Source: a virus
DNA: 18,900 nt
UHGV virus genome: UHGV-1695514
Reading direction: 5' to 3' (one strand)
Shown here: positions 777 to 13,108 of the stretch, one piece after another
Layout of the letters: each line of letters starts with the position of its first letter
Position numbering within the stretch: position 1 is the first letter of the stretch
Position numbers and translations under genes: made by a program
The notes under the pieces: model-generated
What the model was told of the DNA's origin: nothing
Database searches by the model: none
The model's input: only the letters and a program-made list of their open reading frames with translations

Positions 777-787
777 TAACAATATAT

Positions 788-844: not shown

Positions 845-2368
845 ATGGCGATGTATGAAGTCGGTACCGTCACGGGTGCCGCGTCGCAGGCACGGGTGAC
901 AGGTGCGACAACAAAATGGTCACAGGTGGCGCTGGGGATACTGCCCGGGTCGATTCTGGTGGTCTACCGCAGCGGTAGTGCTGACCTGTATGCGATCAAA
1001 TCCGTGGACAGCGACACGCAACTGACGCTGACCCGGAATATCACCACCGCATTTTCCGGTGCCAGTTACGGCATTATTACCGCTGAAACCGCCAGCACCT
1101 CGTCGTTTGCTAACCAGCTGGCCAGCGCGTTTGCATTCTGGCGTAGTGTAGTGGAGGGCTGGTCGATGGCCCTGACCGGCAGCGGCAATATTACCCTGAC
1201 TGACCCGATCACAGGAAAGCAGGTGACCGTGCCGGCGATAGCCGGGATGGCGAAAGCATCGGATCTTAACGCGCTGGCAAAACTCACCGGAGGAAACAAA
1301 CTCGACGGCTCGCAGGTTATAACCAGCGATAATGCCGGTTTTATTCTCGGTAAGAACTCAGATCTGGCTCTGCTCAAAAAACAGGGGCAAGGCGGGACAA
1401 TTGCCGTTGGCTCGGGAACACCGTTCAGGGTTCAGCGTTCAAGAGCGACCACTGTATCACCGGCAGACACCTTTGATGACATCCTCGTTATTGATGCCAA
1501 CAACCGAACGACACTACCTGGCGCGCTGACTGCCGGCGGCGACATCGACAACACGACGAAGGGGTTGCTGTATACCCAGGCGATTGAGCTGTCATTTAGC
1601 ACGCCATACATCGACTTTCATTTTAACTACAGCACCGACGACTTCACCGGGCGGATTATGGCCACTGCCGCCGATCAAATTAGTGTACAAGGTAGTCATT
1701 GGCGAGTTGACAGGGATCTTCGTGTTGGTGGTATGGCAGATATTGGAGGGTGGGCGCAATGCGGAGTCGACCTTTCGGCCAACAGAACAGACTTTGGTTC
1801 CCCTGCTGATGGTTCGTTGGTTTCAGGCGGACGTATTCGATCCAGAATGCTGGGACGCGGCGGTAACGGTGACACCTCCGGAGCGTGGGGTGGTTTCTAC
1901 CTTGAAGAATACGTTGGGTACAACCACCGGGTGGTACTGTATATGGACGGTTTTGACAGAAAAGATGCCTGGCTCTTTTACACCGGTGGGACAATCTCCA
2001 CCCCTAAAGGCGATGTTATGACCACTGGCTCAGACGTGCGGCTGAAAAAGGATTTTACGGAATCCCAGGAAGGGGCCTCCAGGCGTATTAACGCGCTGGG
2101 GGTATGTGAGTTCAACATGAAAGGCGAAACACGCCGTAGGCGTGGATTTATTGCTCAACAAGCTGAAAAAGTGGACCCGATTTACACTTTCCAAAGCGGT
2201 GATGTAGAAATTGATGGCGAGAAGATCAATATCCTTAACGTAGATCAGACAGCAATTGTCGCAGACCTGGTAACTACCGTTCAGGAGCAATGCAACTGTA
2301 TCGAAAAACTTAAAGAAGAGCTCAAAAATCTAAAGGATCTAGTGATGCAAACGCCAGAAACAGCATAA
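845..2368 (+). CDS. tail fibre protein with C-terminal intramolecular chaperone (peptidase S74-type) autoproteolytic domain
   Basis: ATG 845 preceded by GGAGGA (831-836). 507 aa, Gly/Thr/Ser-rich. Near the C-terminus, TGSDVRLKKDF (Ser codon at 2030-2032) fits the S-D-x-R-x-K self-cleavage signature of endosialidase/T5 L-shaped-fibre chaperone domains, followed by GFIAQQ and a coiled-coil-like tail. Confidence 0.75.
   Translation: MAMYEVGTVTGAASQARVTGATTKWSQVALGILPGSILVVYRSGSADLYAIKSVDSDTQLTLTRNITTAFSGASYGIITAETASTSSFANQLASAFAFWRSVVEGWSMALTGSGNITLTDPITGKQVTVPAIAGMAKASDLNALAKLTGGNKLDGSQVITSDNAGFILGKNSDLALLKKQGQGGTIAVGSGTPFRVQRSRATTVSPADTFDDILVIDANNRTTLPGALTAGGDIDNTTKGLLYTQAIELSFSTPYIDFHFNYSTDDFTGRIMATAADQISVQGSHWRVDRDLRVGGMADIGGWAQCGVDLSANRTDFGSPADGSLVSGGRIRSRMLGRGGNGDTSGAWGGFYLEEYVGYNHRVVLYMDGFDRKDAWLFYTGGTISTPKGDVMTTGSDVRLKKDFTESQEGASRRINALGVCEFNMKGETRRRRGFIAQQAEKVDPIYTFQSGDVEIDGEKINILNVDQTAIVADLVTTVQEQCNCIEKLKEELKNLKDLVMQTPETA
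2030..2368 (+). other. intramolecular chaperone / self-cleaving domain of the tail fibre (domain-level feature)
   Basis: Begins at the Ser of the SDVRLK motif (codon 396); cleavage immediately N-terminal to this Ser is expected by analogy with peptidase S74 domains. Confidence 0.55.
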
Positions 2369-2384: not shown

Positions 2385-2402
2385 ATGTAAGTACTTACCT
2401 AC
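2385..2402. promoter_or_regulatory. intergenic motif with perfect palindrome GTAAGTACTTAC followed by CTAC; candidate operator/promoter element
   Basis: GTAAGTACTTAC at 2387-2398 is a perfect 12-bp palindrome. Sits about 60 bp upstream of the holin-like gene, with an AT-rich TATAAA-like stretch at 2423-2428. Related copies occur in at least six other intergenic regions. Confidence 0.45.
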
Positions 2403-2464
2403 AATTAGTTTCTAATTTATGATATAAATCTGCCATCCGATTTGACTTATTCATGGAGGAAGAC

Positions 2465-2788
2465 ATGTCAAACGAGATGGCAGGCGTGACGCCAGAGCAG
2501 GTGGAGCGCATTGCCGCAATTGTGGCGCGAGAAGTCGTAGGAAAATTAAGTAAGGAGCTTCGAGATGATATTGGCCAGGAGGTCAACGATCAGCTGCGAA
2601 CCTACTTTGGTGATATGACTCCGGCGCAACATAGCATTCAGCATTCCAACCTGGACAAACTTCTTAATCGGCTCGACACGATTTCAAGCGGGTTCTTTGG
2701 AGGCATTATTTCCAAGATTACCTCGTTCCTGATCACCGTGCTGCTTTTGGGTTTGGCCGCTTATGGCGTGAAAAATGGACTGCAATAA
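2465..2788 (+). CDS. putative holin / lysis membrane protein with a single C-terminal transmembrane segment
   Basis: GGAGG at 2455-2459 with ATG at 2465 (alternative in-frame ATG at 2453 has no RBS). Hydrophilic N-terminal part, then hydrophobic ISKITSFLITVLLLGLAAYGV near the C-terminus. First gene of a cluster ending in a spanin pair. Confidence 0.5.
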   Translation: MSNEMAGVTPEQVERIAAIVAREVVGKLSKELRDDIGQEVNDQLRTYFGDMTPAQHSIQHSNLDKLLNRLDTISSGFFGGIISKITSFLITVLLLGLAAYGVKNGLQ

Positions 2789-2801
2789 CAGGAGAACAAG
2801 G

Positions 2802-3494
2802 ATGAGTACTCCAAGAGGCATTCGTAACAATAACCCTGGTAACCTGGATAAGGGGTCGCCGTGGCAAGGGCTAGTAAACAATCCGGCGGAACCGCGGTTC
2901 TGCACTTTTAAAGACCCCGTATGGGGGATTCGAGCACTGACAGTAACGCTCATCACCTACCATGATAAGCGCCGCGCAAAAGACGGTTCCAGCATCGATA
3001 CGATCCGCGAAGTCATCGAGCGTTGGGCGCCGCCACATGAAAACAACACGGCCGCCTATATCAATGAGGTATCTAAAGCCGTAGGCGTGACGCCGGACAT
3101 GATCATCGATCTGCATGACTACAATACTATGCGGCCGCTGGTGGAGGCGATCATTCGTCATGAGAACGGTCGTGGCCCGTTGAAAACACTCAACAGCTGG
3201 TATTCGGCCGAAGTTATTGACGAAGGTATGCGTCGCGCCGGCGTCGTTAAACCGGTAACTGCAGTGAAAGCGGTACCCGTCACGAAAGAAACAGCCGGCG
3301 CAACGGTGACTGCAGGTATCGGTATTGCGCAGCTGGCGGACGTAATGCCGCAGATCTCCGTTGCGATGGATAAGGCCCAGGGACATATCACCAGCGGGGA
3401 TACCGTTCGCATTATCTTCGGTATTGCGACCATTGTTGTCGCCGGCTTTATTGCCTGGGCGCAGATTCGTAAGCATCAGGCAGGAGTGGTGTAA
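2802..3494 (+). CDS. putative endolysin / cell-wall hydrolase (by position in the lysis cassette), with predicted C-terminal membrane helix
   Basis: AGGAG at 2791-2795 with ATG at 2802 (the listed ORF start at 2775 lacks an RBS). N-terminal conserved-looking IRNNNPGNL motif that I cannot assign to a lysozyme family by eye. C-terminal hydrophobic stretch VRIIFGIATIVVAGFIAWAQI. Lies between the holin-like gene and the spanins. Confidence 0.4.
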   Translation: MSTPRGIRNNNPGNLDKGSPWQGLVNNPAEPRFCTFKDPVWGIRALTVTLITYHDKRRAKDGSSIDTIREVIERWAPPHENNTAAYINEVSKAVGVTPDMIIDLHDYNTMRPLVEAIIRHENGRGPLKTLNSWYSAEVIDEGMRRAGVVKPVTAVKAVPVTKETAGATVTAGIGIAQLADVMPQISVAMDKAQGHITSGDTVRIIFGIATIVVAGFIAWAQIRKHQAGVV

Positions 3495-3496
3495 CC

Positions 3497-3748
3497 ATGA
3501 ACGGCAGCCTGTTTTCAAAGGTCAAATCGACCATCATGACTTTGGCTGCCGTCTTCTTTGTGCTCGTTGGGGCGTACACCTGGGGTGGACGCGCTGCCCG
3601 GCGGGCCATGGAGGAAAAGGCGCAGAGAGAAACCAACAAACGGCTTCAAGGCACAGTGGATGTGAAAAATGAGACGATTAATGAAGTCAGGACTAAGGAT
3701 GCTTCTGCCGTTCATCGCGAGCTTCGCGATAAGTGGATGCGTGATTAA
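3497..3748 (+). CDS. i-spanin (Rz-like inner-membrane spanin subunit)
   Basis: 83 aa; N-terminal TM helix (IMTLAAVFFVLVGAYTW) followed by a charged, helical periplasmic domain. Its 3' end is overlapped in the +1 frame by a lipoprotein gene. Confidence 0.75.
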   Translation: MNGSLFSKVKSTIMTLAAVFFVLVGAYTWGGRAARRAMEEKAQRETNKRLQGTVDVKNETINEVRTKDASAVHRELRDKWMRD

Positions 3749-3890: not shown

Positions 3891-3908
3891 CATTTTATGC
3901 CCCGCCTC

Positions 3909-3960
3909 AGAGGATACGCTGCGTTACACTACCTAAACTATGGCGTATCCTCTTTTCTTC
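3909..3960 (+). terminator. hairpin with 11-bp perfect stem followed by a T-rich tract; probable terminator of the lysis cassette
   Basis: AGAGGATACGC (3909-3919) pairs with GCGTATCCTCT (3943-3953), loop 23 nt, then TTTTCTTC. The loop is longer than in a textbook intrinsic terminator. Confidence 0.45.
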
Positions 3961-4019
3961 ACATCTGTCGTCAGAGCTTGATATTCACGGCATCTAACTG
4001 TGCTTCATTCAACCTCATG

Positions 4020-4078
4020 TTGAATGATCCTGCTTAATGATGTAGATTTGATATGACTACAGTCATAACGTGTAGTCA
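4020..4078 (+). promoter_or_regulatory. candidate sigma70-type promoter with a hairpin/operator overlapping the predicted transcription start
   Basis: TTGAAT (4020-4025), 17-bp spacer, TAGATT (4043-4048). Immediately downstream is the inverted repeat TGACTACA (4054-4061) / TGTAGTCA (4071-4078), and a second palindrome GCTACG-CATACT-CGTAGC at about 4084-4101. Confidence 0.3.
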
Positions 4079-4164
4079 CATTCAAGCTACGCATACTCGT
4101 AGCCTCTAAACCCCACAGGGGGTCGCCGCAACGACAGCATTGTCTCAACGGCTAAGGTGGAAAC

Positions 4165-4563
4165 ATGCATAACGCACTTAACTCATCACGTTCTATTCAA
4201 ACGATTAGAGACTGTACCAACATGATCGCATCGGTTCCTTTGCGTCATTGGGATGACTCGCTCCAAATCCGAGAAATGGGCACACCAGGTGAACTTAAGG
4301 ATCAGCGTTTCATCATTACACTGAAGAGTGACGTGGAAGCAGGTAGCTTTACTATCAAATTATTTGCTGAGTTGATGGTTCTGAACAACCGTTTGCGCTT
4401 CCTCGTGAAGCCCGAAAAACAGTTTCCAGAAGTCGTTTACTGCGAAAGGCAAATTTTTTCGGATATCGAGAGTGAAATTGCTACTTTTGTTAAGGACAAG
4501 TACAGTGTAGATGTTAGTCTTGTCCGTACAGATAAATCAATGGACATGCGGCTTGCAAACTAG
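4165..4563 (+). CDS. hypothetical protein (132 aa), first gene of a low-GC two-gene island
   Basis: ATG 4165 preceded by AAGGTGG (4153-4159). No recognisable motif. The stop TAG 4561-4563 directly abuts the ATG of the next gene. Confidence 0.7.
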   Translation: MHNALNSSRSIQTIRDCTNMIASVPLRHWDDSLQIREMGTPGELKDQRFIITLKSDVEAGSFTIKLFAELMVLNNRLRFLVKPEKQFPEVVYCERQIFSDIESEIATFVKDKYSVDVSLVRTDKSMDMRLAN

Positions 4564-5352
4564 ATGGCACCTTCACTAATCGCGGATTACAAAAAGGTAC
4601 TCTCAGATTTCCCAGATCATGATAAACGCGAAAAAATCCGAGTCGGCTATACGGTTGGCTCGGATTTTTCTGTTTTGCGCCTTACTGAGTGGGCGTTGAC
4701 GGGGTCAAGTTACCCATATTGCCTCACTGTATCTGTGGTAGGGGCGCCAGATAATGAGTGGTTGCAAGAAATTGCAATAGAAATGGATGCCTCTGATAAT
4801 GATGAAGAGGAAATCATTGGCTACATACGTGCTTTAGTCGGTGCTGAACCTGAAGATGATGATGGCATCCAGATCGCTAGATTTGTATACAGAGATTTTC
4901 TGTTTCGGTCACAACAAGGTCACCACAGCGGAGTGCAGATTAAAGGTGCTTTTGTTGATCCTTCCAAGGAAAAGAAAGGCCTTGCCCGCTTAGTATATGG
5001 CTTCCTCCTTAACTGGCACGAGCATATCATCAGCGATGACCATCAGACGGTTTATGGGGCTAAGATATGGGCCGTTGGGATGTTAAAAGTAGGTAGAGTG
5101 CAAGTCTACGATAACATAAAAAGTGATTTTGTAGATGTGCTTACTGAAGGCGGTATCGGTATAAATGGATTCAAGCCTTGGGATGCTATGATGCTCAAAG
5201 AAGCACAGCTAAAGCACTGGAACCCTATGGCGATTAGTATAGACCCATCATCGCAGATTCTAGCCATCATTTCAGCGTCTGACAGGCATCAGTATAATGG
5301 TGTTACTGTTTTTAACAGAGTCGTTAGACGAAGGCTCAGAGTAACGAGATAA
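4564..5352 (+). CDS. hypothetical protein (262 aa), second gene of the low-GC island
   Basis: ATG immediately follows the upstream stop (probably co-translated). Acidic stretch (DASDNDEEEI, EPEDDDG). No recognisable catalytic motif. Followed by an intrinsic terminator. Confidence 0.7.
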   Translation: MAPSLIADYKKVLSDFPDHDKREKIRVGYTVGSDFSVLRLTEWALTGSSYPYCLTVSVVGAPDNEWLQEIAIEMDASDNDEEEIIGYIRALVGAEPEDDDGIQIARFVYRDFLFRSQQGHHSGVQIKGAFVDPSKEKKGLARLVYGFLLNWHEHIISDDHQTVYGAKIWAVGMLKVGRVQVYDNIKSDFVDVLTEGGIGINGFKPWDAMMLKEAQLKHWNPMAISIDPSSQILAIISASDRHQYNGVTVFNRVVRRRLRVTR

Positions 5353-5373
5353 ACCCGCTGCGGCGGGTTTTTT
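5353..5373 (+). terminator. rho-independent terminator
   Basis: CCCGC-TGCG-GCGGG hairpin (5354-5367) followed by TTTTTT (5368-5373), directly after the stop at 5350-5352. Confidence 0.8.
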
Positions 5374-5456
5374 GTTGCCATCCTTTAATTAACTCCAAAG
5401 TACCTACCATTTCACCTTTACACCGCAGCCGTAGGCATTTAGGCTATATCGCATAT

Positions 5457-5474
5457 AAGAAAACAAGTTGTTTC
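5457..5474. promoter_or_regulatory. palindromic operator-like element AGAAAACAAGTTGTTTC upstream of parA
   Basis: AAACAA-G-TTGTTT palindrome at 5461-5473, ending 35 bp before the parA start. A near-identical element (AGAAAACAACTTGTTT) precedes the helicase gene. Confidence 0.45.
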
Positions 5475-5508
5475 ATACGACGATAAATCACACGTAGGGA
5501 TATCACGA

Positions 5509-6174
5509 ATGACCCAGATCATTGTGGTGGGCGGCACCAAGGGTGGCCCAGGCAAATCGACTGTTGCTCAGCAAATTGCAGCCTGTCTGAAAATCAAAAA
5601 GAAAAAGAAAGTCCAGATCACTGATATCGACATCCAGCGCACCACGACAGGGTGGTGTGAAGACCGCCGGCACAATGAAGAACTGGAGCTGATCCCGTTC
5701 GCCTATGTCCAGGATGACATCATCAAACACATCACTTCGCTTCGCGGCCGTTTCGATTACGTCGTCGTTGACGCTGGTGGTTTCGACTCCGAAATTCAGC
5801 GCCAGGCTATGCTGATGGCCAACGTGATCCTTATCCCGCTTCGCCCGAAACGTCGCGATCTGAAATCCTTGCGTGACATCGACCCCATCGTCGACAGCGT
5901 TAGCAGCGTGAATGACCAAATCAAAATCCGTGCTGTAATGAACCAGTGCCCGTCTCTGCCTTCCCAGGCTGCGCGCATTATCGCTGCAAAAGAAATTGTC
6001 GAAACCTTTGGCATCGAGGCGGTACCGGTGAATCTTTACAACCGCAACGTCTATGACGATGCCGAAGAGGCGGGCCGTTCCATCTTTGAGATGACCGGAG
6101 CCGAACGCGACAAAAAGGCTGAGGCCGAGATTGAAGCATTAGTAGAATACGTAATGACCTTGGAGGGTGAATAA
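5509..6174 (+). CDS. parA: ParA-family partition ATPase, small type Ib (ParF-like, no N-terminal HTH)
   Basis: Deviant Walker A GGTKGGPGKST near the N-terminus, Walker B-like FDYVVVDAGG, overall ParF-like layout, 221 aa. RBS TAGGGA 8 nt upstream. Stop overlaps the start of the next gene. Confidence 0.8.
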   Translation: MTQIIVVGGTKGGPGKSTVAQQIAACLKIKKKKKVQITDIDIQRTTTGWCEDRRHNEELELIPFAYVQDDIIKHITSLRGRFDYVVVDAGGFDSEIQRQAMLMANVILIPLRPKRRDLKSLRDIDPIVDSVSSVNDQIKIRAVMNQCPSLPSQAARIIAAKEIVETFGIEAVPVNLYNRNVYDDAEEAGRSIFEMTGAERDKKAEAEIEALVEYVMTLEGE

Positions 6175-6536
6175 TGTCCATGAAAATGGGTGATCTGGCA
6201 AAACGTCCGGCTGCGGAAGCTGCTGCGCCTAAAAGCAGCACCCCGATGCGCCAGCCTGTCCGTCCACAAGGCCGTCCAACACGTGGCAAAGAGAAAATCA
6301 AAAGCCGCACGATGTCTCTTGAAGACGAGTATTTCGAATTACTGGAGATGATGAAGTTCATCCCTCGCTTCGAGAAGTTCACCCGTTCTGATGTGATACG
6401 TGCAGCCATTTTCCATCTGGCAGAGAAGTCCCCGCAGGAAATAGAGGACATCGTAAAGATGAACGAGGCGATCACCGCAGCCGATGTGACGATGCGTACC
6501 GATGAAATCAAGCGTGAGCTGATGAAGAAAGGTTAA
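6174..6536 (+). CDS. small basic partition/centromere-binding partner (ParG-like, putative ribbon-helix-helix)
   Basis: ATG overlaps the parA stop (TAATG). Basic Pro/Arg-rich N-terminal tail, then an RHH-like segment (KSRTMSLEDEYFELLEMMKF...SDVIRAAIFHL). Position matches the second gene of type Ib par operons. Confidence 0.55.
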   Translation: MSMKMGDLAKRPAAEAAAPKSSTPMRQPVRPQGRPTRGKEKIKSRTMSLEDEYFELLEMMKFIPRFEKFTRSDVIRAAIFHLAEKSPQEIEDIVKMNEAITAADVTMRTDEIKRELMKKG

Positions 6537-6581
6537 ATAAGAGGCGTCGAAAGATGCCTTTAACTCAAAAGGACTTTGTTT

Positions 6582-7340
6582 GTGCTGTACAAATACGTAG
6601 GGCATGAAGACCCAAACGAATTAATCAAAATTCTTAAATTCTTCATCGAAGATGGAACCATCCGAGCCACCCGGCCACACGACTTCAATGATCCTGCCGA
6701 GTTCAAAGCCAAATTTAGTTTTGACGCCACGATCCAAGAGAAGCTTGTCCGATATCATGAGATGTGGCCTGGCAAAAGCGACGATGACGGTGAGAACTGG
6801 TTAAGAGGGCGAACCAAAAACGCCGAAGAGTTTGACGCCTATATGCTGCGCGGAAATCTGCTTTTGGATACTGGTGTGATATGCCTCACCAGAACTGACA
6901 CTAATTACCTGATGTGGTCGCATTACGCCAGCTCCCACTCTGGATTTTGCATAGGGTTTGATGACGCTATTGTGGAAGCGCTGGATGACCGACACACAGC
7001 GTTAAACGGTGACGTGGAGTACGTGAAATCGCCGCCTGAAGTGAACTTCTATACCGCTGATGTGTACGACATTGTCAGAGCCATCTTTCTGCACAAGGGT
7101 GAGAGCTGGAAGTACGAAGAAGAGTTCCGGATTATCTCTGAGCTGCCAGGGCTTAAGAAGTTGGACACCTCGCTCATCAAAGAGATTTCTATCGGATGCA
7201 AACCCTATCCAGAGCTGGAAAGTTTTGCCCGTGAACTGCTGGACAGCAATCTGGCCGTGTACAAAATGCTTTGCCCTACCGACTCGTACCAACTGAAGCG
7301 TGTGGAGCTGGACAAGAACCTTTCTTTTCAAGGTTACTAG
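6582..7340 (+). CDS. DUF2971-like protein of unknown function
   Basis: N-terminal LYKY motif, FNDP-AEF, and a central MWSHYA...GFCIGFD block resemble my recollection of the DUF2971 family. Start is ambiguous: GTG 6582 (AAGGA 9 nt upstream) or TTG 6576. Lower GC than flanking genes. Confidence 0.5.
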   Translation: MLYKYVGHEDPNELIKILKFFIEDGTIRATRPHDFNDPAEFKAKFSFDATIQEKLVRYHEMWPGKSDDDGENWLRGRTKNAEEFDAYMLRGNLLLDTGVICLTRTDTNYLMWSHYASSHSGFCIGFDDAIVEALDDRHTALNGDVEYVKSPPEVNFYTADVYDIVRAIFLHKGESWKYEEEFRIISELPGLKKLDTSLIKEISIGCKPYPELESFARELLDSNLAVYKMLCPTDSYQLKRVELDKNLSFQGY

Positions 7341-7361
7341 TTCTGGCAGCTTCAATTAAGA

Positions 7362-7427
7362 ACCTGCTTCTGTATATATAAATACTAAGTTACTTATTAT
7401 TATTTATACGGAAGCAGGTCTTTTTCT
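7362..7427 (+). terminator. 9-bp perfect stem enclosing a 40-nt AT-rich loop, followed by CTTTTTCT; terminator-like or regulatory hairpin
   Basis: ACCTGCTTC (7362-7370) pairs with GAAGCAGGT (7411-7419). The loop contains the palindrome TAAGTTACTTA (7386-7396). Confidence 0.4.
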
Positions 7428-7501
7428 ATGCCAACTTCCCAGACACATTCCCTTCCGTTTCCACTTCCAAAAAACATCTCCAGTCGCTATGATCTGTCAA
7501 A

Positions 7502-7519
7502 TAGTAAGTAAGTAGTTAC
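7502..7519. promoter_or_regulatory. TAGTAAGTAAGTAGTTAC motif; candidate operator/promoter element
   Basis: GTAAGTAAGTAGTTAC at 7504-7519, 15 bp upstream of the ATG at 7534. Its exact reverse complement occurs at 14320-14335 upstream of phoH. Confidence 0.45.
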
Positions 7520-7533
7520 CTATCGGTGAGGGC

Positions 7534-8259
7534 ATGAGCCAGATCTTTTTTGACACCATAAACAACGGCCAGTACGACTTCATGACAGAGTGGGACACGG
7601 TCGCCATGGACAAGTGGGTTGCGGAAAACATCGGTCTTTCACGATGCCAGGGGGAGGCTGAGCTCTTTGATACAAAGTGGTTTGACTATCGCGACATGCA
7701 CCCGCTGATGGCAACCTGTCTGTTCACCGAAGCCTATAAGCGCGCATACTCACAGATCATGCTGTCTCATGGCCGCGAGCATTTCGAGACGGCGCCATTC
7801 AGCACTGGTCTGAAACGCCTGCCTTACCAAGAGCTTTCGGCGGTGAACAAAACCTCTCTCTGGAAAGCTCGCCAGTTTGCAGATCGGTATTGCTGTTCTT
7901 ATGACTATTTTATATCAACTGTTCTCTCTGCAGCTGCACGCCGGCTCTGGGACAAATTACCTCGCCCTCAGCATCTTTGGCAGCCAGAACTGATTGAGAT
8001 CTTCGAAAGCAAACTCGCCAGTCGTGCGGGAACGCGTCTGGATGACTCTGTAGTGAGTTTTAAGCACTTAGGAGACATGCAGCATGACCCAATTCAGGAA
8101 CGTTACTTTGAATGGGTTCTGGAGCGTTTGAAGCACATCACCCGTGATAAGCGTATCCGCACCATCTTCTCTGCTGTCTGGTTGATGGAGCTGGTGCCTG
8201 AGCGCGTTATCTATGCCCATTACCCGGAAGAACTGGAAGAAGCACGGCGACTGTGTTGA
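7534..8259 (+). CDS. hypothetical protein (241 aa)
   Basis: Long ORF with uniform coding-like composition; no recognisable motif. Confidence 0.65.
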   Translation: MSQIFFDTINNGQYDFMTEWDTVAMDKWVAENIGLSRCQGEAELFDTKWFDYRDMHPLMATCLFTEAYKRAYSQIMLSHGREHFETAPFSTGLKRLPYQELSAVNKTSLWKARQFADRYCCSYDYFISTVLSAAARRLWDKLPRPQHLWQPELIEIFESKLASRAGTRLDDSVVSFKHLGDMQHDPIQERYFEWVLERLKHITRDKRIRTIFSAVWLMELVPERVIYAHYPEELEEARRLC

Positions 8260-8282
8260 TTGCCTGTTCCATATTTTTACGA

Positions 8283-8300
8283 TTAGAAAACAACTTGTTT
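8283..8300. promoter_or_regulatory. palindromic operator-like element AGAAAACAACTTGTTT upstream of the helicase gene
   Basis: AAACAA-C-TTGTTT palindrome at 8288-8300, 23 bp before the ATG at 8324. Matches the element upstream of parA at 17 of 18 positions. Confidence 0.45.
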
Positions 8301-8323
8301 AAGCACCAAAGGATATCAAACAC

Positions 8324-9664
8324 ATGACCGAACTTTGCCACACGGGACGAGGGTTGTCTGAAGAGTTCGACGACGACTTCCAGAATCGTCTGGCGGCGTA
8401 TTTTTGCCGCGATCATGAGTTTCTGACTCGTGCCGGCGATCTGGTTGCCCCCAACCAATTCTCCAATGCGGCGAACGCCATACTGGTGAACATGGTATCG
8501 GGCTATTTCAGAATGTATAAGAGCGCGCCGTCATCGGCGGCCATCCTCGATATGTTGAAGCGTGCTAAACGCGATAAGACGATCAGAGAAGAGATGTTCC
8601 CGGATGTTGTGGCGGCGTTTAAGCGGGTGCTCTCGGAAAAACTCTCTGATACGGCTTACATGGTCGACCAGGTCGCGACGTTCGCTAAAAGTGTAGCGTT
8701 CGACGATGCGTTGATTAAAGCGGCCGAGATGAAGGAGAAGGGCGACTTCCAGGGAGCGATGGCCATCATGGCCAAAGTGCAGCAGATCGGTTCTAACGAA
8801 GCGACGGGCATTTATGACTATTACGCCTCTGCAGCGGAACGTTACAAGGCCCGTGAATATGAAGCCTCTGATGATTACGTGCCGAACAGCATCACCACCG
8901 GTCTTCCGCTGCTGGATCGCATGCTTTATCAAAAAGGTTGGGCGAAACGTGAGATGGTGCTCTTCATGGGGTTTGCGAAATCAGGTAAATCGACAGCGAT
9001 GGGGGAGTTCTCCATTAACGCAACGCTGGCCGGCTACAACGTTTTGTATCTTTCTCTCGAAGTGCATACCTCGATTCTCTCCGATCGCTTCGATGCACGG
9101 CTGTCTGAAACGGAGATGTCAAAGCTGGTAGAGCAGCGTGACGACGTTCACCGGAAACTCGCGGAGCTTGGCGCGACGAAAGGGGTGGGGAATCTCTGGG
9201 TGGTTGAGCGCCCGTCAGGAAGCATGTCGCCTGCAGATTTGGATCGTATGCTCAATAGCATGAAAGCGAATGGCATGATCCCGGATATGGTGGTGGTCGA
9301 CTATGCGGACTTGATGCGTGCCAGTTACGACCTCCGTGACGACCGGGCGAACATCCGTTCTATCTACACCGATCTGCGTGCTCTCTACGATAAGCACAAC
9401 GTTGCAGGAATCACGGCATCCCAGACCAACCGTGAAGGTGGCTCATCCGAAGTGGCCACCATGATGCACGCCGCAGACAATATCGAAAAAGTCCGTATCG
9501 CCGACTTAGTCATCACTATCAACAAGACTGAGGAGGAAGAAGCCAAAGGTGAAGCACGACTCTATTTTGCTGGTTCCCGTAACCAGAAGGGCGGGGTGAG
9601 TATTCGCGTTAAGCAGAATCTCGAACAGATGCGCTTCATCGAGCGGATCATGGAAGTTCTTTAA
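8324..9664 (+). CDS. DnaB-like replicative DNA helicase (RecA-fold ATPase)
   Basis: Walker A GFAKSGKST, Walker B-like MVVVDYADLM, helicase-like C-terminal region (ITASQTNREG); 446 aa; adjacent to a primase gene. Confidence 0.75.
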   Translation: MTELCHTGRGLSEEFDDDFQNRLAAYFCRDHEFLTRAGDLVAPNQFSNAANAILVNMVSGYFRMYKSAPSSAAILDMLKRAKRDKTIREEMFPDVVAAFKRVLSEKLSDTAYMVDQVATFAKSVAFDDALIKAAEMKEKGDFQGAMAIMAKVQQIGSNEATGIYDYYASAAERYKAREYEASDDYVPNSITTGLPLLDRMLYQKGWAKREMVLFMGFAKSGKSTAMGEFSINATLAGYNVLYLSLEVHTSILSDRFDARLSETEMSKLVEQRDDVHRKLAELGATKGVGNLWVVERPSGSMSPADLDRMLNSMKANGMIPDMVVVDYADLMRASYDLRDDRANIRSIYTDLRALYDKHNVAGITASQTNREGGSSEVATMMHAADNIEKVRIADLVITINKTEEEEAKGEARLYFAGSRNQKGGVSIRVKQNLEQMRFIERIMEVL

Positions 9665-9671
9665 AAAAATA

Positions 9672-9712
9672 GGCGTGGGGCAAAGACGGATAACAGCCCC
9701 ACGCCCTTAAAA
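9672..9712. terminator. 9-bp GC-rich hairpin flanked by A-run upstream and weak T-tract downstream; possible bidirectional terminator
   Basis: GGCGTGGGG (9672-9680) pairs with CCCCACGCC (9697-9705), loop 16 nt. The downstream U-tract on the + strand is weak (CTTAAAAATT); on the - strand it is followed by a T-run. Confidence 0.4.
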
Positions 9713-9746
9713 ATTACCTTTTGGTTAATCACAAAAGGAAAAACAC

Positions 9747-9815
9747 ATGAGCCTTTATGGTATTCAAAAAACGCGGCTTATCAAGATATTGCCGTTTAAA
9801 AACTGCGGTAAATGA
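9747..9815 (+). CDS. possible 22-codon upstream ORF translationally coupled to the primase gene
   Basis: AAGGA (9735-9739) 7 nt before ATG 9747; encodes MSLYGIQKTRLIKILPFKNCGK. Its TGA (9813-9815) overlaps the primase ATG (9812-9814), which itself has no obvious RBS. Confidence 0.25.
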   Translation: MSLYGIQKTRLIKILPFKNCGK

Positions 9816-10933
9816 CAATGAGTGACCTCAAAGAGTTACTGTCCGAGCTGGATTTCGAACAATGGCTGGATATGGAAGGCATCATCTATCGTCGCGGCGG
9901 TGTAAGCGCCCGCGGCCGCGAAGTGAATATCAAAGAATGTCCGGTATGTGGAAGCACAAACTGGAAGGTCTATTTCAACCTGACCAACAACGTCGGGAAA
10001 TGCTTCGCCGGCGATCACCCAGAAGAAATTCAATTTAATAAGCTGGTTTTCCTCAAACACTACAGCGGTAAGTCTCGTCGTGCCTTTGAGGAGTACGTAC
10101 ATAACGCACTCCTGTCTCAAGGTTGGGCGCCAAAAAAAGAAGAGGTTGTGCTGGCCAGTGCTGTGGAACTTGAAGGCCCGGTGGCTTTACCGCGGCATTA
10201 TGAACTGCCAATTGACGGTCGGCTGCCGGACTATCTTGTTGAGCGGAACATTACCCCGGAGCTGGCCAAATATTTTGACCTGCGTTACTGCGTCGAGGGA
10301 AAACATGCTTATGTCGACCCATATACCGATCAGGTAAAAGGGCAGGCATTCGATATGCGCATCCTGATACCGATTTACGATCTGAATGGGGTGATGAAGA
10401 CATTCCAGGGGCGTGACGTCACCGGCGCAGCAGAACGTCGATATCTCTTTCCAATGCAGCTGCCGGCATCCGGGAGGTTTCTCTACAATGGACATAACGC
10501 AGTTGGTAAGCAAACAGTCGTCGTCTGTGAGGGGGCTTTCGATGTCATGGGGGTTAAGCGCGCCATATTCGACGAGGAAACACTCCGGGACTACGTAGAG
10601 CCCATTGGCACGTTCGGGATGCATCTGTCCGGAAACACGACTGTAGACGCAGAAGACCAGCTGGGCGCGTTTCTGTCGTTAAAGGCTGATGGTCTGCGAA
10701 ACGTCATCATGATGTGGGATAGCGAGAAGCAAGCGATCCGAAACACAATGGCGGCCGCCAGACGATTAGCCAGTATAGGGTTAAATGTGAAAATAGCCTG
10801 TCTTGGAGAAGAAGGGCTAGATCCCGGGGAGGCCACCCAGGAACAAATTCTCAAAGCCTACTATCGTGCAAAACCCTACTCTAAGCAACTGGAGCTGCAG
10901 AGCAAGGTTCTCGGTATTAGTGCATTTAATTAG
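9812..10933 (+). CDS. DNA primase (zinc-ribbon plus TOPRIM, DnaG/T7 gp4-primase-like)
   Basis: Zinc-binding-type CPVCGS...(14)...C-x4-H near the N-terminus; TOPRIM signature VVCEGAFDVMG (E-G-x-x-D) and a downstream acidic MWDSE motif; located next to the helicase gene. Confidence 0.7.
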   Translation: MTMSDLKELLSELDFEQWLDMEGIIYRRGGVSARGREVNIKECPVCGSTNWKVYFNLTNNVGKCFAGDHPEEIQFNKLVFLKHYSGKSRRAFEEYVHNALLSQGWAPKKEEVVLASAVELEGPVALPRHYELPIDGRLPDYLVERNITPELAKYFDLRYCVEGKHAYVDPYTDQVKGQAFDMRILIPIYDLNGVMKTFQGRDVTGAAERRYLFPMQLPASGRFLYNGHNAVGKQTVVVCEGAFDVMGVKRAIFDEETLRDYVEPIGTFGMHLSGNTTVDAEDQLGAFLSLKADGLRNVIMMWDSEKQAIRNTMAAARRLASIGLNVKIACLGEEGLDPGEATQEQILKAYYRAKPYSKQLELQSKVLGISAFN

Positions 10934-11053
10934 TTCGACTCATGGCTGTAGTTCCATATCCGTGTCGGAAATACCATAATTTTTTTATGGATGTAGGTAT
11001 CTACTTAAATATTTTAATGTAATAAATAACACTTTGGTTATGGAGGACATCAC

Positions 11054-11842
11054 ATGAAAAAAGGTATCGAACAGGCAGTTTTAGAGATGATCAAGAAGTC
11101 AGGCGTAGAGCTTGGCGAGGGAGAACTGGAGAGCATCATCGATGCCTCATTCAACACGGCATCAGAGCACATATCGAATGCGCTATCCTGCATTCCTCTC
11201 AAAGAAGGGGCGACACATACGTCGGTGTTAGTGTGGTACGCAAAGACGCCTGAAATGCCCGGTACTGTTCAAAAGCGTGTAGCTCTGGTTGCGTTCATCG
11301 TCCCGTCGTTTGAGACCGGCATTGGGCCAGTCGCGCGTTTTGGCGCCTGGTATGACGACAAAATCATCTTCTCAAACTGCTACCAGATGGAAAGCAGGGA
11401 AATGCTTGAGAATAGCGTTAACGTGACTCTAAGAGCCGTAGAAAGCAAATGCGAGACAGTAGGAGAGGCTTTCGTCAGCGTCATGACTTCTCCCGATGTT
11501 GAAAGGCGCCATGTAGATCTGGTAGCACCACCAGGCTTGTTGGAAATGATTGTCTCTGGAGATTACAACAAGGCTATAGCGCGTGTTCGTGAGCTGGACT
11601 ATGGGCGTATCTGCGACTTGTGTCGTAGTGATCTGGATTTAATCAATGTGATCGTTGAGGCTGGCCGCGTCTGTGATGGGGTGTTGGCACAATACGCAAG
11701 TAAGATCAGTCGTTTGGCCAATGAAATGCCTATGCTGATTCAGGAAGCCAAATCCCACGCCGTTCATGCCGCAAACGACCTGCTAACCCCTTATCGATAC
11801 GAAGCCGCAAGTGACAAGATGACCGGCTGGGCCACCTGGTAA
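11054..11842 (+). CDS. hypothetical protein (262 aa)
   Basis: GGAGGA (11042-11047) 6 nt before ATG 11054; coding-like composition; no recognisable motif. Upstream AT-rich region contains a GTAGGTATCTACTTAAAT motif. Confidence 0.7.
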   Translation: MKKGIEQAVLEMIKKSGVELGEGELESIIDASFNTASEHISNALSCIPLKEGATHTSVLVWYAKTPEMPGTVQKRVALVAFIVPSFETGIGPVARFGAWYDDKIIFSNCYQMESREMLENSVNVTLRAVESKCETVGEAFVSVMTSPDVERRHVDLVAPPGLLEMIVSGDYNKAIARVRELDYGRICDLCRSDLDLINVIVEAGRVCDGVLAQYASKISRLANEMPMLIQEAKSHAVHAANDLLTPYRYEAASDKMTGWATW

Positions 11843-11887
11843 GCCGTGACTATGTACTGTGTCCCCGTACAGAGTTATTTAAACTGA

Positions 11888-11904
11888 TTAGTAAGTAAGT
11901 ACAA
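11888..11904. promoter_or_regulatory. TAGTAAGTAAGTACAAG motif; candidate operator/promoter element
   Basis: Direct GTAA repeats (GTAAGTAAGTA at 11890-11900), 21 bp upstream of the ATG at 11922; same family as the 7502 and 14320 motifs. Confidence 0.4.
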
Positions 11905-11921
11905 GATTATCATTTAGAGAA

Positions 11922-12389
11922 ATGGCTACCAAAACTGACTTATCAAAAATCCCTTCGATCTCTGGACTCAACGGCTACTCGCTGCGTTGCCCGGAAGTGA
12001 AGCTTAACGGACATGACTCGTACTGCAGCTACACCGTCTGTCAGCACACGATCCTTGCCTTCAAAGAGAAGCGACTGCCGGCGTCATCGTTCACCTCCTG
12101 TGCGAACGCCATTTCGGCCGGAAAATGCCAGGCGCTGGAAATGATGGTGGAGGAAATCCGGCAAGGTGAGTCGCTGTATTTCGTCGATATGCCGGCGCTC
12201 ATTGAAGAGGTGGAGGAAAGAAACCGAACAGCGAGAACCCTGCAGCCGAAGAGAGGCAGTGCATCTATCTACAGTGGAATTAAAGGGAAGCGCCAATCTT
12301 CGACCGTTGCTGAAACTGGCAGACTGCCCGATGCCAGCGAGATTTATTCAGAACTTATCAAAGAAACCTTAAAGGAGAAGACCGACTAA
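11922..12389 (+). CDS. hypothetical Cys-containing protein (155 aa)
   Basis: First gene of a run of four genes with overlapping start/stop codons; five Cys in the N-terminal half (possible metal site); no recognisable family. Confidence 0.6.
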   Translation: MATKTDLSKIPSISGLNGYSLRCPEVKLNGHDSYCSYTVCQHTILAFKEKRLPASSFTSCANAISAGKCQALEMMVEEIRQGESLYFVDMPALIEEVEERNRTARTLQPKRGSASIYSGIKGKRQSSTVAETGRLPDASEIYSELIKETLKEKTD

Positions 12390-12637
12390 TGGAGAAGCTG
12401 ATCGCGCTTAAACATAAGCTGGACGCCATTAAAGCAATGGGAACGAACGCCAAGAAAGAGGCGCTGGCCAGTATGAATGACTTCGAACAAAGAATGGTGT
12501 CACTCATGCTGAACCCATTTGTTCGTTTCGGGGTGAAGAAATACAAAGTGGCCGATCCACTTAGCAAGTCCGTACCCAGTGATCAGAAGGCGATAGAGCT
12601 GCTGGAGCAACTGATTGAAGCAGGAGAATACTCATGA
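12389..12637 (+). CDS. hypothetical protein (82 aa)
   Basis: ATG overlaps the upstream stop (TAATG); helical, charged composition. Confidence 0.55.
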   Translation: MEKLIALKHKLDAIKAMGTNAKKEALASMNDFEQRMVSLMLNPFVRFGVKKYKVADPLSKSVPSDQKAIELLEQLIEAGEYS

Positions 12638-12786
12638 TTCCATACATCATATTGACTTTTTCTGGAGGCGTCGCCCTTGGCTTCATCATCTGTCATGACT
12701 TGATCAAGCAGGAACTGAAGACCAAAACACTACGTATCGGTAAGCGGGTATATCGCGTCGTTCACGAGACAGGGGTATCAAAATGA
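12634..12786 (+). CDS. possible small membrane protein (50 aa), below the ORF-track length cut-off
   Basis: ATG 12634 overlaps the stop of the upstream gene (ATGA). Encodes MIPYIILTFSGGVALGFIICHDL... with one N-terminal TM helix. Its stop (12784-12786) overlaps the ATG of the next gene (12783). Confidence 0.35.
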   Translation: MIPYIILTFSGGVALGFIICHDLIKQELKTKTLRIGKRVYRVVHETGVSK

Positions 12787-13082
12787 GCAATCTAACCTCG
12801 TTTGACTGGTGGATAGGCTTGTACTTTGTGGCTTCTGGTGTCGCAGTAGCTTTTACGATTGGCCAGTCCCTGGTAAAGCTACTGCTTTTAAGATTCGCCA
12901 ATCGCAAGCGTATCGATGACACGCTTTGGTGCCTTGGATCTCTACTTGAACAGCGTTACGGCGAGCTGAAGGAAGGTGCAACCCTTTGCATAAAGGCAAA
13001 ACGTTTCACGGCCACAATCCAACGGACGCAGGATGAGAAGCCAGTACTGATCAAAAAAGGAGCAAGCGAACGCATGAAATAA
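12783..13082 (+). CDS. hypothetical small membrane protein (99 aa)
   Basis: N-terminal hydrophobic helix (WWIGLYFVASGVAVAFTIGQSLV), then a basic tail; last gene of the overlapping run. Confidence 0.55.
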   Translation: MSNLTSFDWWIGLYFVASGVAVAFTIGQSLVKLLLLRFANRKRIDDTLWCLGSLLEQRYGELKEGATLCIKAKRFTATIQRTQDEKPVLIKKGASERMK

Positions 13083-13108
13083 TAGGTAAGTGTTTACTTA
13101 TTAAGTTG
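13083..13108. promoter_or_regulatory. GGTAAGTGTTTACTTATTAAG motif (TAAGT-N4-ACTTA inverted half-sites)
   Basis: Same half-sites as the 2387 and 7386 palindromes; lies at the start of the long non-coding tRNA region. Confidence 0.35.

What the first reader, a model, noticed from the sequence alone, without database searches (positions are those of the whole stretch)
5509..10933. Plasmid-type partition system next to phage replication genes suggests a phage-plasmid lifestyle
A ParF-like ATPase with a small RHH partner sits a few kb from tail-fibre and lysis genes and immediately upstream of a DnaB-like helicase and primase. That combination is typical of prophages that replicate as low-copy plasmids (SSU5/pHCM2-like or N15/P1-like) rather than integrating. 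No centromere-like iteron array is evident in the par flanks, so the centromere is unidentified.
Basis: inference. Interest (0 to 1): 0.5.

Follow-up and report, generated by a model that had tools for sequence, protein, structure and literature searches.

The report
Partition operon of a known Klebsiella phage-plasmid

Summary
Window 5509-6174 encodes a 221-aa ParF-like Walker ATPase. Its stop codon overlaps the start of a 120-aa partner gene (6174-6536). A DnaB-like helicase (8324-9664) and a primase (9812-10933) lie downstream, and tail-fibre and lysis genes lie upstream.

The window is 97-99% identical to about 110-kb circular Klebsiella plasmids and to isolated phages of the SSU5 supergroup (pKpn type). 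The closest complete plasmid carries an iteron-flanked Rep3 RepA. In 5,426 complete E. coli genomes the par-helicase segment occurs at 272 places, all on plasmids and none on chromosomes. The phage-plasmid reading is therefore supported and already published.

Corrections:
- Two genes separate par from the helicase.
- The RHH fold of the partner has only weak, convergent support.
- Relatives do carry an integrase-family gene.

No iteron centromere exists. The only conserved palindrome in the parA promoter (5459-5475, GAAAACAAGTTGTTTCA) is one of 13-20 copies of a genome-wide promoter-leader element. A second copy lies before the helicase gene (8286-8302). Its presence across genomes follows an FljA-like repressor rather than the partner, so the centromere remains unidentified.

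The parts
845..2368 (+). Tail fibre gene (507 aa). This is the phage context named in the finding.
   Evidence: phrog_1980 tail fiber protein, E 6e-119. RefSeq annotation of the closest plasmid reads 'tail fiber domain-containing protein'.
2387..2398 (.). Perfect palindrome GTAAGTACTTAC between the tail-fibre gene and the lysis genes. It is a member of dispersed motif B and fits the published rule for SlmA-binding sites.
   Evidence: The SlmA-binding-site rule comes from PMC3020112. There are 5 such sites in the closest plasmid against 0.06 expected.
2453..3748 (+). Lysis cassette: putative holin (2453-2788), endolysin (2775-3494) and Rz-like spanin (3497-3748).
   Evidence: phrog_873 endolysin and phrog_1026 Rz-like spanin. 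Synteny with SSU5_026 to SSU5_028.
4165..5352 (+). Two hypothetical genes (132 and 262 aa) upstream of par. They are absent from some relatives, so they are not core to par.
   Evidence: phrog_2594 and phrog_3307, both of unknown function. They are missing in Cyrano and in L008.
5351..5370 (+). Intrinsic terminator that closes the upstream unit, so par has its own promoter.
   Evidence: Terminator scan. Conserved in 5 of 7 relatives in alignment A2.
5417..5445 (+). Predicted parA promoter: -35 TTTACA (5417-5422), a 17-nt spacer, and -10 TAGGCT (5440-5445). An alternative -10, TATAAG, lies at 5454-5459.
   Evidence: Read from the sequence. TTTACAC and TTAGGCTA are invariant in 7 diverged loci. 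The promoter assignment is an inference.
5459..5475 (+). Motif A, the 17-bp palindrome GAAAACAAGTTGTTTCA, between the parA promoter and the parA start codon. It is the only conserved symmetric element in the par flank.
   Evidence: Core invariant across 7 loci. It is one of 13 copies in the closest plasmid against 0.14 expected, and one of 20 in SSU5 against 0.06 expected.
5509..6174 (+). parA: a small (221 aa) ParF-like deviant-Walker-A partition ATPase with no N-terminal DNA-binding extension.
6174..6536 (+). Partner gene (120 aa), probably translationally coupled to parA. It has a disordered basic N-terminus with an invariant MGDL.K motif, then a probable ribbon-helix-helix segment at residues 42-84, then two more helices. 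It is the presumed centromere-binding protein.
   Evidence: Overlapping stop and start codons. phrog_5111. The family is confined to SSU5-like elements. Always adjacent to parA. AF2 models. Weak RHH clues.
6582..7340 (+). DUF2971 gene in a variable cargo slot between par and the replication genes.
   Evidence: Pfam DUF2971. In relatives the same slot holds GIY-YIG, P-loop NTPase or other genes.
7362..7419 (.). Long hairpin with 20-nt arms, followed by a T-run. It is probably a terminator that closes the par/cargo unit.
   Evidence: the repeat finder I1. Conserved in relatives.
7505..7520 (+). Motif B copy (TAAGTAAGTAGTTACC) between a predicted promoter and the 241-aa gene.
7534..8259 (+). Conserved 241-aa gene of unknown function. 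In every relative examined it lies just upstream of the helicase gene, directly adjacent except in Drgb1, where an hfq gene intervenes.
   Evidence: phrog_2500. No Pfam or PDB match. Synteny.
8286..8302 (+). Second copy of motif A (GAAAACAACTTGTTTAA), 21 nt upstream of the helicase start codon.
   Evidence: Conserved in 7 loci.
8324..9664 (+). DnaB-like replicative helicase (446 aa).
   Evidence: Pfam DnaB_C. phrog_19, E 2e-88.
9812..10933 (+). DnaG/Toprim-type primase (373 aa).
   Evidence: phrog_47, E 1.5e-61. TIGR01391 dnaG domain. Weak Pfam DNAG_N and Toprim_2 hits.

Best explanation
The region is the partition operon plus the phage-type replication module of a pKpn-type, SSU5-supergroup phage-plasmid of Klebsiella.

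In the prophage state the roughly 110-kb circle replicates from an iteron-controlled Rep3 RepA origin that lies outside the window. It is segregated by a two-gene, type Ib (ParF-like) system, as follows:
1. The 221-aa ParA binds ATP, dimerises and coats the nucleoid.
2. The 120-aa partner binds plasmid DNA through a probable ribbon-helix-helix dimer.
3. The partner's flexible basic N-terminal tail stimulates the ParA ATPase.
4. Plasmid copies are therefore driven apart over the nucleoid.

The helicase and primase, together with the Pol III alpha, ligase and nrd genes elsewhere on the element, serve phage-mode replication.

Shown here: gene identities, operon structure, membership of the element, extrachromosomal occurrence, and the RepA-iteron replicon in near-identical relatives.

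Inferred: the partition mechanism, DNA binding by the partner and its RHH fold, and the division of labour between RepA and the helicase/primase.

The cis-acting centromere is not identified. The parA promoter-leader carries one copy of a 17-bp palindrome that marks 13-20 promoters across the genome. This suggests that par expression is wired into a genome-wide regulon.
For: - Identity and lifestyle. 97.4-99.5% identity to many circular plasmids of about 110 kb and to isolated phages. Full phage gene set and RepA with iterons in NZ_CP055511.1. 272 plasmid places and 0 chromosomal places in 5,426 complete E. coli genomes. The group is described in PMC7969092 and PMC12977533.
- ParA. Deviant Walker A motif, ParA and MipZ profile hits, and ParF as the best solved relative.
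- Partner. Stop and start codons overlap. It is adjacent to parA in all 8 diverged loci examined, including Pectobacterium Drgb1 at 32% identity. Both genes are lost together in pMT1, which carries a type Ia ParAB instead.
- Partner DNA-binding segment. SRT.S.EDE and RSDV.RAA segments are conserved or invariant, and weak RHH matches fall on exactly that segment.
- Own transcription unit. An upstream terminator plus a conserved promoter.
Against: - No centromere-like repeat array lies next to the operon, although one is usual for type Ib systems.
- The partner shows no detectable homology to ParG, and neither monomer model shows the ribbon strand expected of an RHH fold; the one model searched has no significant fold match.
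- ParA scores below the NCBIfam equivalog cut-off.
- Nothing here shows function. No stability data for this cassette were found in the searchable literature.
- The window itself contains neither RepA nor the recombinase, so the lifestyle argument rests on near-identical complete relatives.
Confidence: 0.85

Rival explanations
1. The partner is a global regulator and the centromere is dispersed. On this reading the RHH partner binds the 17-bp palindrome GAAAACAAnTTGTTTAA at the parA promoter and at its 12-19 other copies. It would then act as autorepressor, co-regulator of replication and late genes, and centromere-binding protein. Precedents are omega of pSM19035, KorB of RK2 and the scattered SopB sites of N15.
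For: - The palindrome is the only conserved symmetric element in the par flank, and type Ib partners normally autoregulate through such a site.
- Both the palindrome core and the partner's presumed DNA-reading segment are invariant across the family.
- Seven-bp arms centred 10 bp apart would suit two RHH dimers (inference).
- Drgb1 has no genome-wide regulon of this motif, yet AAGAAAACAA and GTTTTCTT half-sites lie upstream of its parA.
Against: - The phyletic pattern disagrees in two of four genomes. pMT1 lacks the partner but keeps 6 sites at orthologous promoters. Drgb1 keeps the partner, with the same motifs, but has no such sites elsewhere.
- An FljA-like repressor (Pfam Flag1_repress, E 1.5e-72) matches the motif's presence and absence in all four genomes.
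- All sites share one orientation and a fixed distance from a -10 hexamer: T at -12 in 32 of 32 sites. That is promoter-leader architecture, not centromere architecture.
- Caveat: the pMT1 flanks are as conserved as the sites themselves, so that genome is weak evidence.
Confidence: 0.1
2. The cassette is not the working partition system of the prophage. ParA and its partner would serve another role, such as positioning replicating phage DNA or regulation. Segregation would then depend on other functions, such as copy number, dimer resolution by the tyrosine recombinase, or toxin-antitoxin killing.
For: - No adjacent centromere.
- The parA promoter-leader carries the same element as the promoters of the helicase, nrd and terminase operons. 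This is unexpected for a gene that must be expressed during lysogeny if that element is the prophage repressor's operator.
- A YafO-family toxin gene lies in the window, and a recombinase gene lies in relatives.
Against: - ParA keeps intact Walker motifs, and the cassette is conserved from Klebsiella to Pectobacterium.
- In pMT1 its loss coincides with the presence of a different complete ParAB, as expected if a partition system is required.
- Low-copy replicons of 100 kb generally need active partition (general knowledge, also stated in PMC7969092).
Confidence: 0.05
3. The real centromere-binding partner of this ParA is one of the two ParB N-terminal-domain proteins encoded about 36 kb away (SSU5_125 and SSU5_126, annotated 'ParB-like partition protein'). 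The 120-aa protein would then be something else.
For: Both carry Pfam ParB_N and PHROG 'ParB-like partition protein' labels. A surveillance study uses 'parB' as a marker gene for SSU5.
Against: - They sit in the conserved phage block next to the DEAD-box helicase and terminase genes. They persist in pMT1, which has lost this ParA and has its own ParAB, and they persist in Drgb1. They are therefore not coupled to this ParA.
- They also hit PHROG nuclease and methyltransferase-associated ParB_N families.
- The 120-aa gene is probably translationally coupled to parA and always adjacent to it.
Confidence: 0.03
4. The element is an ordinary integrating prophage, and its par genes are a relic.
For: A 366-aa tyrosine recombinase (phrog_1 integrase) lies just beyond the right end of the window in the closest plasmid, and also in pMT1, Cyrano and Drgb1.
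Against: - 0 of 272 places are chromosomal in complete E. coli genomes.
- Hundreds of circular plasmid records of 100-125 kb.
- A RepA-iteron replicon is present.
- Plasmid prophages commonly use such recombinases for dimer resolution, as in P1 Cre-lox (general knowledge).
Confidence: 0.01

Closest known systems
SSU5-supergroup phage-plasmids, pKpn type (e.g. Klebsiella plasmid pRHBSTW-00472_3, phages pJN2-26 and vB_KpnS_p4727; prototypes SSU5 and pHCM2)
   Same: - Nucleotide identity of 97-99% to Klebsiella members and 83% to SSU5 over the par-replication block.
- Identical gene order: tail fibre, lysis, ParA, partner, variable slot, 241-aa gene, helicase, primase.
- Relatives are circular plasmids of about 110 kb with an IncFIB-type RepA.
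   Different: - Only strain-level differences.
- DUF2971 occupies the variable slot.
- The DNA ligase gene is reduced to an 82-aa remnant.
- A group II intron lies at the right end.
- The tail fibre is mosaic with other Klebsiella phages.
ParF/ParG (type Ib) partition system of plasmid TP228
   Same: - A small deviant-Walker-A ATPase with no N-terminal DNA-binding domain. ParF is its best solved relative (E 1.7e-10, nearly full length).
- A small partner gene immediately downstream.
- The partner has a flexible basic N-terminal tail followed by a probable RHH segment.
   Different: - The partner is 120 aa against 76 aa for ParG, has two extra C-terminal helices, and shows no detectable sequence homology to ParG.
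- No array of short repeat boxes lies upstream, unlike the array described for ParG's site (from my own knowledge of the ParF/ParG literature).
- The single upstream palindrome is shared with many unrelated promoters.
Plasmid prophages P1 (ParAB/parS, type Ia) and N15 (SopAB with dispersed centromeres)
   Same: Temperate phages kept as low-copy plasmids by a Walker-type ParA system. N15 is a precedent for centromere sites lying away from the par operon (from my own knowledge).
   Different: - This ParA is the short type Ib kind, not type Ia.
- No protelomerase and no linear-plasmid features.
- No sequence relationship to P1 or N15 in the par-replication block.
- pMT1, within the same supergroup, is the member that carries a type Ia ParAB.

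Membership tests
SSU5-supergroup phage-plasmid (pKpn type) | High gene-repertoire and sequence similarity to recognised members | tested here: met
   96% cover at 97.9% identity to NZ_CP055511.1. 70-72% cover at 97-98% identity to phages pJN2-26 and vB_KpnS_p4727. 83% identity to SSU5 over 5349-13884. Shared synteny.
SSU5-supergroup phage-plasmid (pKpn type) | Phage structural and lysis genes on the same replicon | tested here: met
   In the window: tail fibre, endolysin and spanin. In the closest plasmid: terminase, portal, capsid, tape measure and tail genes.
SSU5-supergroup phage-plasmid (pKpn type) | Plasmid replication initiator and origin | tested here: met
   Not in the window. In the closest complete relative there is a 365-aa Rep3_N RepA, with TATGCTGTCAGCGGTA iterons at 21-bp spacing on both sides. 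PLSDB types it as an IncFIB replicon.
SSU5-supergroup phage-plasmid (pKpn type) | Extrachromosomal rather than integrated | tested here: met
   The par-helicase segment occurs at 272 places on plasmids and 0 on chromosomes in 5,426 complete E. coli genomes. The closest records are circular plasmids of about 110 kb, and the related records are 100-125 kb plasmid records.
Type Ib (ParF/ParG-like) partition system | Short ParA with a deviant Walker A (KGGxxK[ST]) and no N-terminal HTH domain | tested here: met
   221 aa, with KGGPGKST at residues 11-18. The alignment to ParF covers residues 8-215.
Type Ib (ParF/ParG-like) partition system | Small partner gene directly downstream in the same operon | tested here: met
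   The TAATG overlap at 6172-6176. Adjacent in all 8 loci examined.
Type Ib (ParF/ParG-like) partition system | Partner is a ribbon-helix-helix dimer | tested here: inconclusive
Type Ib (ParF/ParG-like) partition system | Centromere of repeated partner-binding sites next to the operon | tested here: not met
   No direct-repeat or tandem arrays. The 150-bp upstream region holds a single palindrome that is not specific to par. A loose cluster of three GTAGG boxes is not conserved.
Type Ib (ParF/ParG-like) partition system | Stabilises a low-copy replicon, and the partner stimulates the ParA ATPase | not testable with these tools
   Needs stability and biochemical assays. None for this cassette were found in the searchable literature.
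   All phage records sharing the par-replication block are SSU5-like. The closest plasmid is circular, and no gene in it is annotated as a protelomerase. ParA is the short type.

The most novel reading that the evidence does not exclude
SSU5-type phage-plasmids may lack a conventional par-adjacent centromere and may segregate through dispersed short palindromes. One version is that the RHH partner binds the 17-bp GAAAACAAnTTGTTTAA sites that also mark 13-20 promoters. Partition, replication genes and late genes would then be coupled through one protein. The other version is that the element recruits a host factor through its GTAAGTACTTAC palindromes. These fit the published SlmA-binding rule and are about 80-fold over-represented.
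Probability: 0.12. Interest if true: 0.6.

Novelty: already known. Interest (0 to 1): 0.22.

Why it matters
pKpn and SSU5 phage-plasmids are common in clinical Klebsiella, E. coli and Salmonella, and they can carry resistance genes (PMC9600943). How they are stably inherited is therefore of practical interest. This finding adds nothing new on lifestyle.

The useful residue is narrower:
1. The family's presumed centromere-binding protein belongs to a tiny, unannotated family: 21 representatives among 1.84 billion proteins.
2. No centromere can be recognised next to the operon.
3. The par promoter shares a genome-wide promoter-leader element with the promoters of the replication, nucleotide-metabolism and late operons.

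Points 2 and 3 give concrete, cheap targets for ChIP, EMSA and stability experiments.

Tried and rejected
1. **Iteron or tandem-repeat centromere.** The repeat finder and TRF found nothing in 3900-8400 or in the whole window.
2. **Motif A as a par-specific centromere.** Rejected as par-specific. There are 13 copies in the closest plasmid and 20 in SSU5, all in promoter-leader position. The phyletic pattern fits an FljA-like repressor better than the partner.
3. **Short GTAGG/TAGGC boxes upstream of parA.** Three GTAGG boxes in 120 bp ties for the densest cluster in the plasmid, but they are not conserved in SSU5 or other relatives.
4. **Centromere downstream of the partner gene.** That position is a variable cargo slot with no conserved non-coding block.
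5. **Homology of the partner to ParG.** None. The ParG sequence used was verified against 1p94.
7. **ParB_N proteins as the partner of this ParA.** Rejected on linkage and phyletic grounds.
8. **Similarity of motif A to the E. coli fliC leader, the known FljA target.** No convincing match.
9. **Pectobacterium Drgb1 as a co-variation test.** Suggestive half-sites only.
10. **Function of the 241-aa gene upstream of the helicase.** No Pfam or PDB relative.
11. **Literature on an SSU5 or pHCM2 centromere or operator.** None found in the searchable library.

Full report
**What is in the window.** The 18.9-kb window is transcribed almost entirely rightward. The order of genes is as follows.
- The end of a giant tail protein gene.
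- A tail-fibre gene (845-2368), then a holin-like gene, an endolysin and an Rz-like spanin (2453-3748).
- Two hypothetical genes (4165-5352), followed by a terminator (5351-5370).
- parA (5509-6174) and its 120-aa partner (6174-6536).
- A DUF2971 gene (6582-7340), then a long hairpin (7362-7419).
- A conserved 241-aa gene (7534-8259).
- A DnaB-like helicase (8324-9664) and a primase (9812-10933).
- Further right: small genes, two tRNAs, phoH, a glutaredoxin, a YafO-family toxin, a colicin-immunity gene and a group II intron.

**Checking the observation.**
- ParA is 221 aa. It carries the deviant Walker A motif KGGPGKST.
- It matches ParA, MipZ, CbiA and VirC1 profiles. It scores 119.6 bits on NCBIfam ParA_partition, below the equivalog cut-off of 180.
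- Its best solved relative is ParF of TP228, aligned over nearly its full length. 'ParF-like' is therefore accurate.
- The partner's ATG overlaps the parA stop codon (TAATG).
- Repeat finders report no iteron or tandem array in the flanks.
- Two details need correction. Two genes (1.8 kb) separate par from the helicase. The RHH fold of the partner was an assumption.

**Testing the RHH claim.**
- *Positive but weak results.* All fall on residues 42-84 (IKSRTMSLEDEY...TRSDVIRAAI). There is a sub-threshold NCBIfam hit to the RHH protein aCcr1. Family member P0029 hits RHH_1 at E 0.005, and a remote member, P0042, just passes the RHH_1 and RHH_8 cut-offs. The only PDB hit of the broadened family profile is the RHH domain of NikR at E 1.6.
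- I rate the RHH fold probable but unproven.
- The family is tiny. It has 28 clusters in the 5.8-billion-protein set and 21 representatives in 1.84 billion proteins. In the plasmid collection it occurs in 797 enterobacterial records, nearly all about 100-115 kb and non-mobilizable.

**What the element is.**
- The window is 96% covered at 97.9% identity by the circular IncFIB plasmid NZ_CP055511.1. It is similarly close to many other Klebsiella plasmids of about 110 kb and to Klebsiella phages pJN2-26, vB_KpnS_p4727 and vB_Kpn_1825-KPC53.
- Salmonella phage SSU5 matches at 83% across the par-replication block.
- Gene order is conserved in SSU5, Cyrano, PhiR41_1, three metagenomic or genomic lineages and, more distantly, Pectobacterium plasmid Drgb1.
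- This is the pKpn type of the SSU5 supergroup described by Pfeifer et al. (PMC7969092; PMC12977533).

- The closest complete plasmid carries a 365-aa Rep3-type RepA. It is flanked on both sides by 21-bp-spaced iterons (TATGCTGTCAGCGGTA).
- The same plasmid has a full siphovirus morphogenesis block, Pol III alpha, nrdAB and thymidylate synthase.
- A 366-aa tyrosine recombinase lies just beyond the right end of the window. An 'integrase' therefore does exist.
- Nevertheless the par-helicase segment is present in 264 of 5,426 complete E. coli genomes, at 272 places on plasmids and none on chromosomes.
- One preprint reports chromosomally integrated rep/par fragments without phage genes in S. Agona (10.1101/2025.09.12.675607). 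This does not affect the conclusion.

**Is the 120-aa protein really ParA's partner?**
- It is adjacent to parA in all eight loci examined. The start overlaps the parA stop in the window, and the two annotated genes abut or overlap in most of the other loci.
- Both genes are absent together from pMT1, which has a type Ia ParA/ParB pair instead.
- Two ParB_N-domain proteins are annotated as 'ParB-like partition proteins' in SSU5. They lie 36 kb away in the conserved block next to the terminase genes.
- Those two proteins persist in pMT1 and in Drgb1 regardless of the par type. They are therefore not the cognate partner.

**The centromere question.**
- I aligned the 150-bp parA upstream region from seven diverged loci. 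Three blocks are invariant: TTTACAC, TTAGGCTA and ATAAGAAAACA..TTGTTT. The first two are my predicted -35 and -10.
- The third block is a 17-bp palindrome, motif A (window 5459-5475).
- A second copy lies 21 nt before the helicase start codon (8286-8302). That copy is also conserved in all seven loci.
- The motif is not specific to par. The closest plasmid has 13 copies against 0.14 expected. SSU5 has 20 against 0.06 expected.
- In the closest plasmid almost all copies, and in SSU5 about two-thirds, lie on the same strand as the gene that follows. In every case they start 11 nt after a -10-like hexamer, with T at -12 in 32 of 32 sites, and they typically lie 10-35 nt before a ribosome-binding site and start codon.
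- The downstream genes include parA, the helicase, the small-terminase/late operon, nrdB, a cobT-like gene, ant and many small early genes.
- Motif A is therefore a genome-wide promoter-leader or operator element.

**Who binds motif A?** I compared four genomes.
- The motif-A regulon is present in the Klebsiella plasmid, SSU5 and pMT1. It is absent from Drgb1.
- The partner is present in the Klebsiella plasmid, SSU5 and Drgb1. It is absent from pMT1. That is a mismatch in two of four genomes.
- A 176-aa protein annotated as a repressor (orthologue of SSU5_121) has exactly the motif's distribution.
- That protein is an FljA homologue (Pfam Flag1_repress, E 1.5e-72). FljA-type repressors block translation of fliC mRNA (PMC2652032). 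An RNA-level role for the leader element is therefore conceivable.
- The E. coli fliC leader shows no convincing similarity to motif A.
- Four genomes are few, and pMT1's flanks are as conserved as its sites. I therefore leave about 10% for the idea that the partner binds motif A and that the centromere is dispersed, as in omega, KorB or N15.
- No other candidate emerged. GTAGG boxes cluster upstream of parA in the Klebsiella element but are not conserved. The region downstream of the partner is a variable cargo slot.

**How it most likely works.**
- *Shown:* a self-contained two-gene operon with its own terminator-bounded promoter; a ParF-like ATPase with intact motifs; a co-inherited small partner with a conserved basic N-terminus (MGDL.K, then PQGRPTRGK) and a conserved probable DNA-binding segment; an extrachromosomal, RepA-iteron replicon.
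- *Inferred from what is established for type Ib systems:* ATP-bound ParA dimers bind the nucleoid. Partner dimers bound to plasmid DNA stimulate ATP hydrolysis through their flexible N-terminal tails. The resulting ParA gradient moves plasmid copies apart.
- *Inferred:* the helicase and primase serve phage-mode replication, and RepA serves prophage maintenance.

**Novelty and score.** The element and its lifestyle are already published, and near-identical sequences are abundant in databases. The finding is therefore correct but ordinary. The remaining open point, an unidentified centromere in a widespread clinical phage-plasmid family, is real but modest. The dispersed motifs give concrete experimental handles.

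Noticed in passing
window 5459-5475 and 8286-8302; NZ_CP055511.1 positions 2739, 17359, 30743, 33570, 67153, 77300, 78170, 78221, 79129, 79714, 91011, 91725, 92440: A 17-bp palindrome, GAAAACAAnTTGTTTAA, follows a -10-like hexamer at a fixed 11-nt distance and precedes the ribosome-binding site. It does so at 13 promoters in the Klebsiella plasmid and 20 in SSU5, including those of parA, the helicase, the small terminase, nrdB, the cobT-like gene and ant. It looks like a genome-wide operator or 5'-leader element. I found no description of it in the searchable literature.
   Followed up: yes
NZ_CP055511.1 74392-74922 (L004 36393-36923); SSU5_121; pMT1 34465-34992: The 'transcriptional repressor' of these phage-plasmids is an FljA homologue (Pfam Flag1_repress, E 1.5e-72). 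FljA is a family known to block translation of fliC mRNA. Its presence and absence across four genomes match the 17-bp palindrome regulon. It could regulate phage-plasmid mRNAs, host flagellin, or both.
   Followed up: partly
window 2387-2398; also 7505-7520, 11888-11901, 13085-13098, 14319-14338; NZ_CP055511.1 17899, 36647, 61754, 65200, 78729: A second dispersed motif, GTAAGTA in inverted or direct pairs. The perfect palindromes (GTAAGTACTTAC) fit the published SlmA-binding-site rule GTRAGYRCTYAC (PMC3020112). They occur 5 times against 0.06 expected in the plasmid and 3 times against 0.08 in SSU5. They lie in short intergenic gaps, for example between terL and portal, before the holin gene, and before a 126-aa HTH regulator gene. 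They could be host SlmA sites, a phage operator, or intercistronic RNA hairpins.
   Followed up: partly
window 6537-7533: The slot between the par partner gene and the conserved 241-aa gene is a cargo hotspot. It holds DUF2971 here. In relatives it holds a LEM-3-like GIY-YIG nuclease, a P-loop NTPase or other unrelated genes.
   Followed up: partly
window 12389-12637: The DNA ligase gene of SSU5-type elements (440 aa) is reduced here to an 82-aa N-terminal remnant, 81% identical to the start of the SSU5 ligase. Some close relatives keep the full gene.
   Followed up: yes
window 17665-18900: A group II intron (Rfam group-II-D1D4-6, 186.6 bits, at 17721-17946, followed by the start of an ltrA-type reverse transcriptase gene) is inserted between the colicin-immunity gene and the recombinase gene. 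It is present in only a few of the closest plasmids. It is 99.8% identical to a copy in an unrelated Klebsiella phage record.
   Followed up: partly
window 13810-13884 and 14032-14118: The element carries tRNA-Asn(GTT) and tRNA-Ser(TGA) genes. SSU5 has tRNA-Asn and Cyrano has Asn, Thr and Ser at the same place.
   Followed up: no
window 1-2368: The tail-tip and tail-fibre segment is mosaic. It is 90-98% identical to tail-fibre genes of unrelated 40-55-kb Klebsiella siphoviruses, but not to the SSU5-type relatives that match the rest of the window. This suggests exchange of host-range modules.
   Followed up: no
window 16528-17361: A YafO-family toxin gene (16528-16938) and, on the opposite strand, a colicin E1-family immunity gene (17002-17361) lie near the right end. 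They may act as addiction or competition cargo alongside par.
   Followed up: no
L014 4227-4915 (Pectobacterium plasmid Drgb1): In this distant SSU5-like plasmid the parA gene is split into two ORFs in the deposited record, either by a frameshift or by a sequencing error. The partner gene is intact. The plasmid also carries an hfq gene directly upstream of the helicase gene.
   Followed up: no
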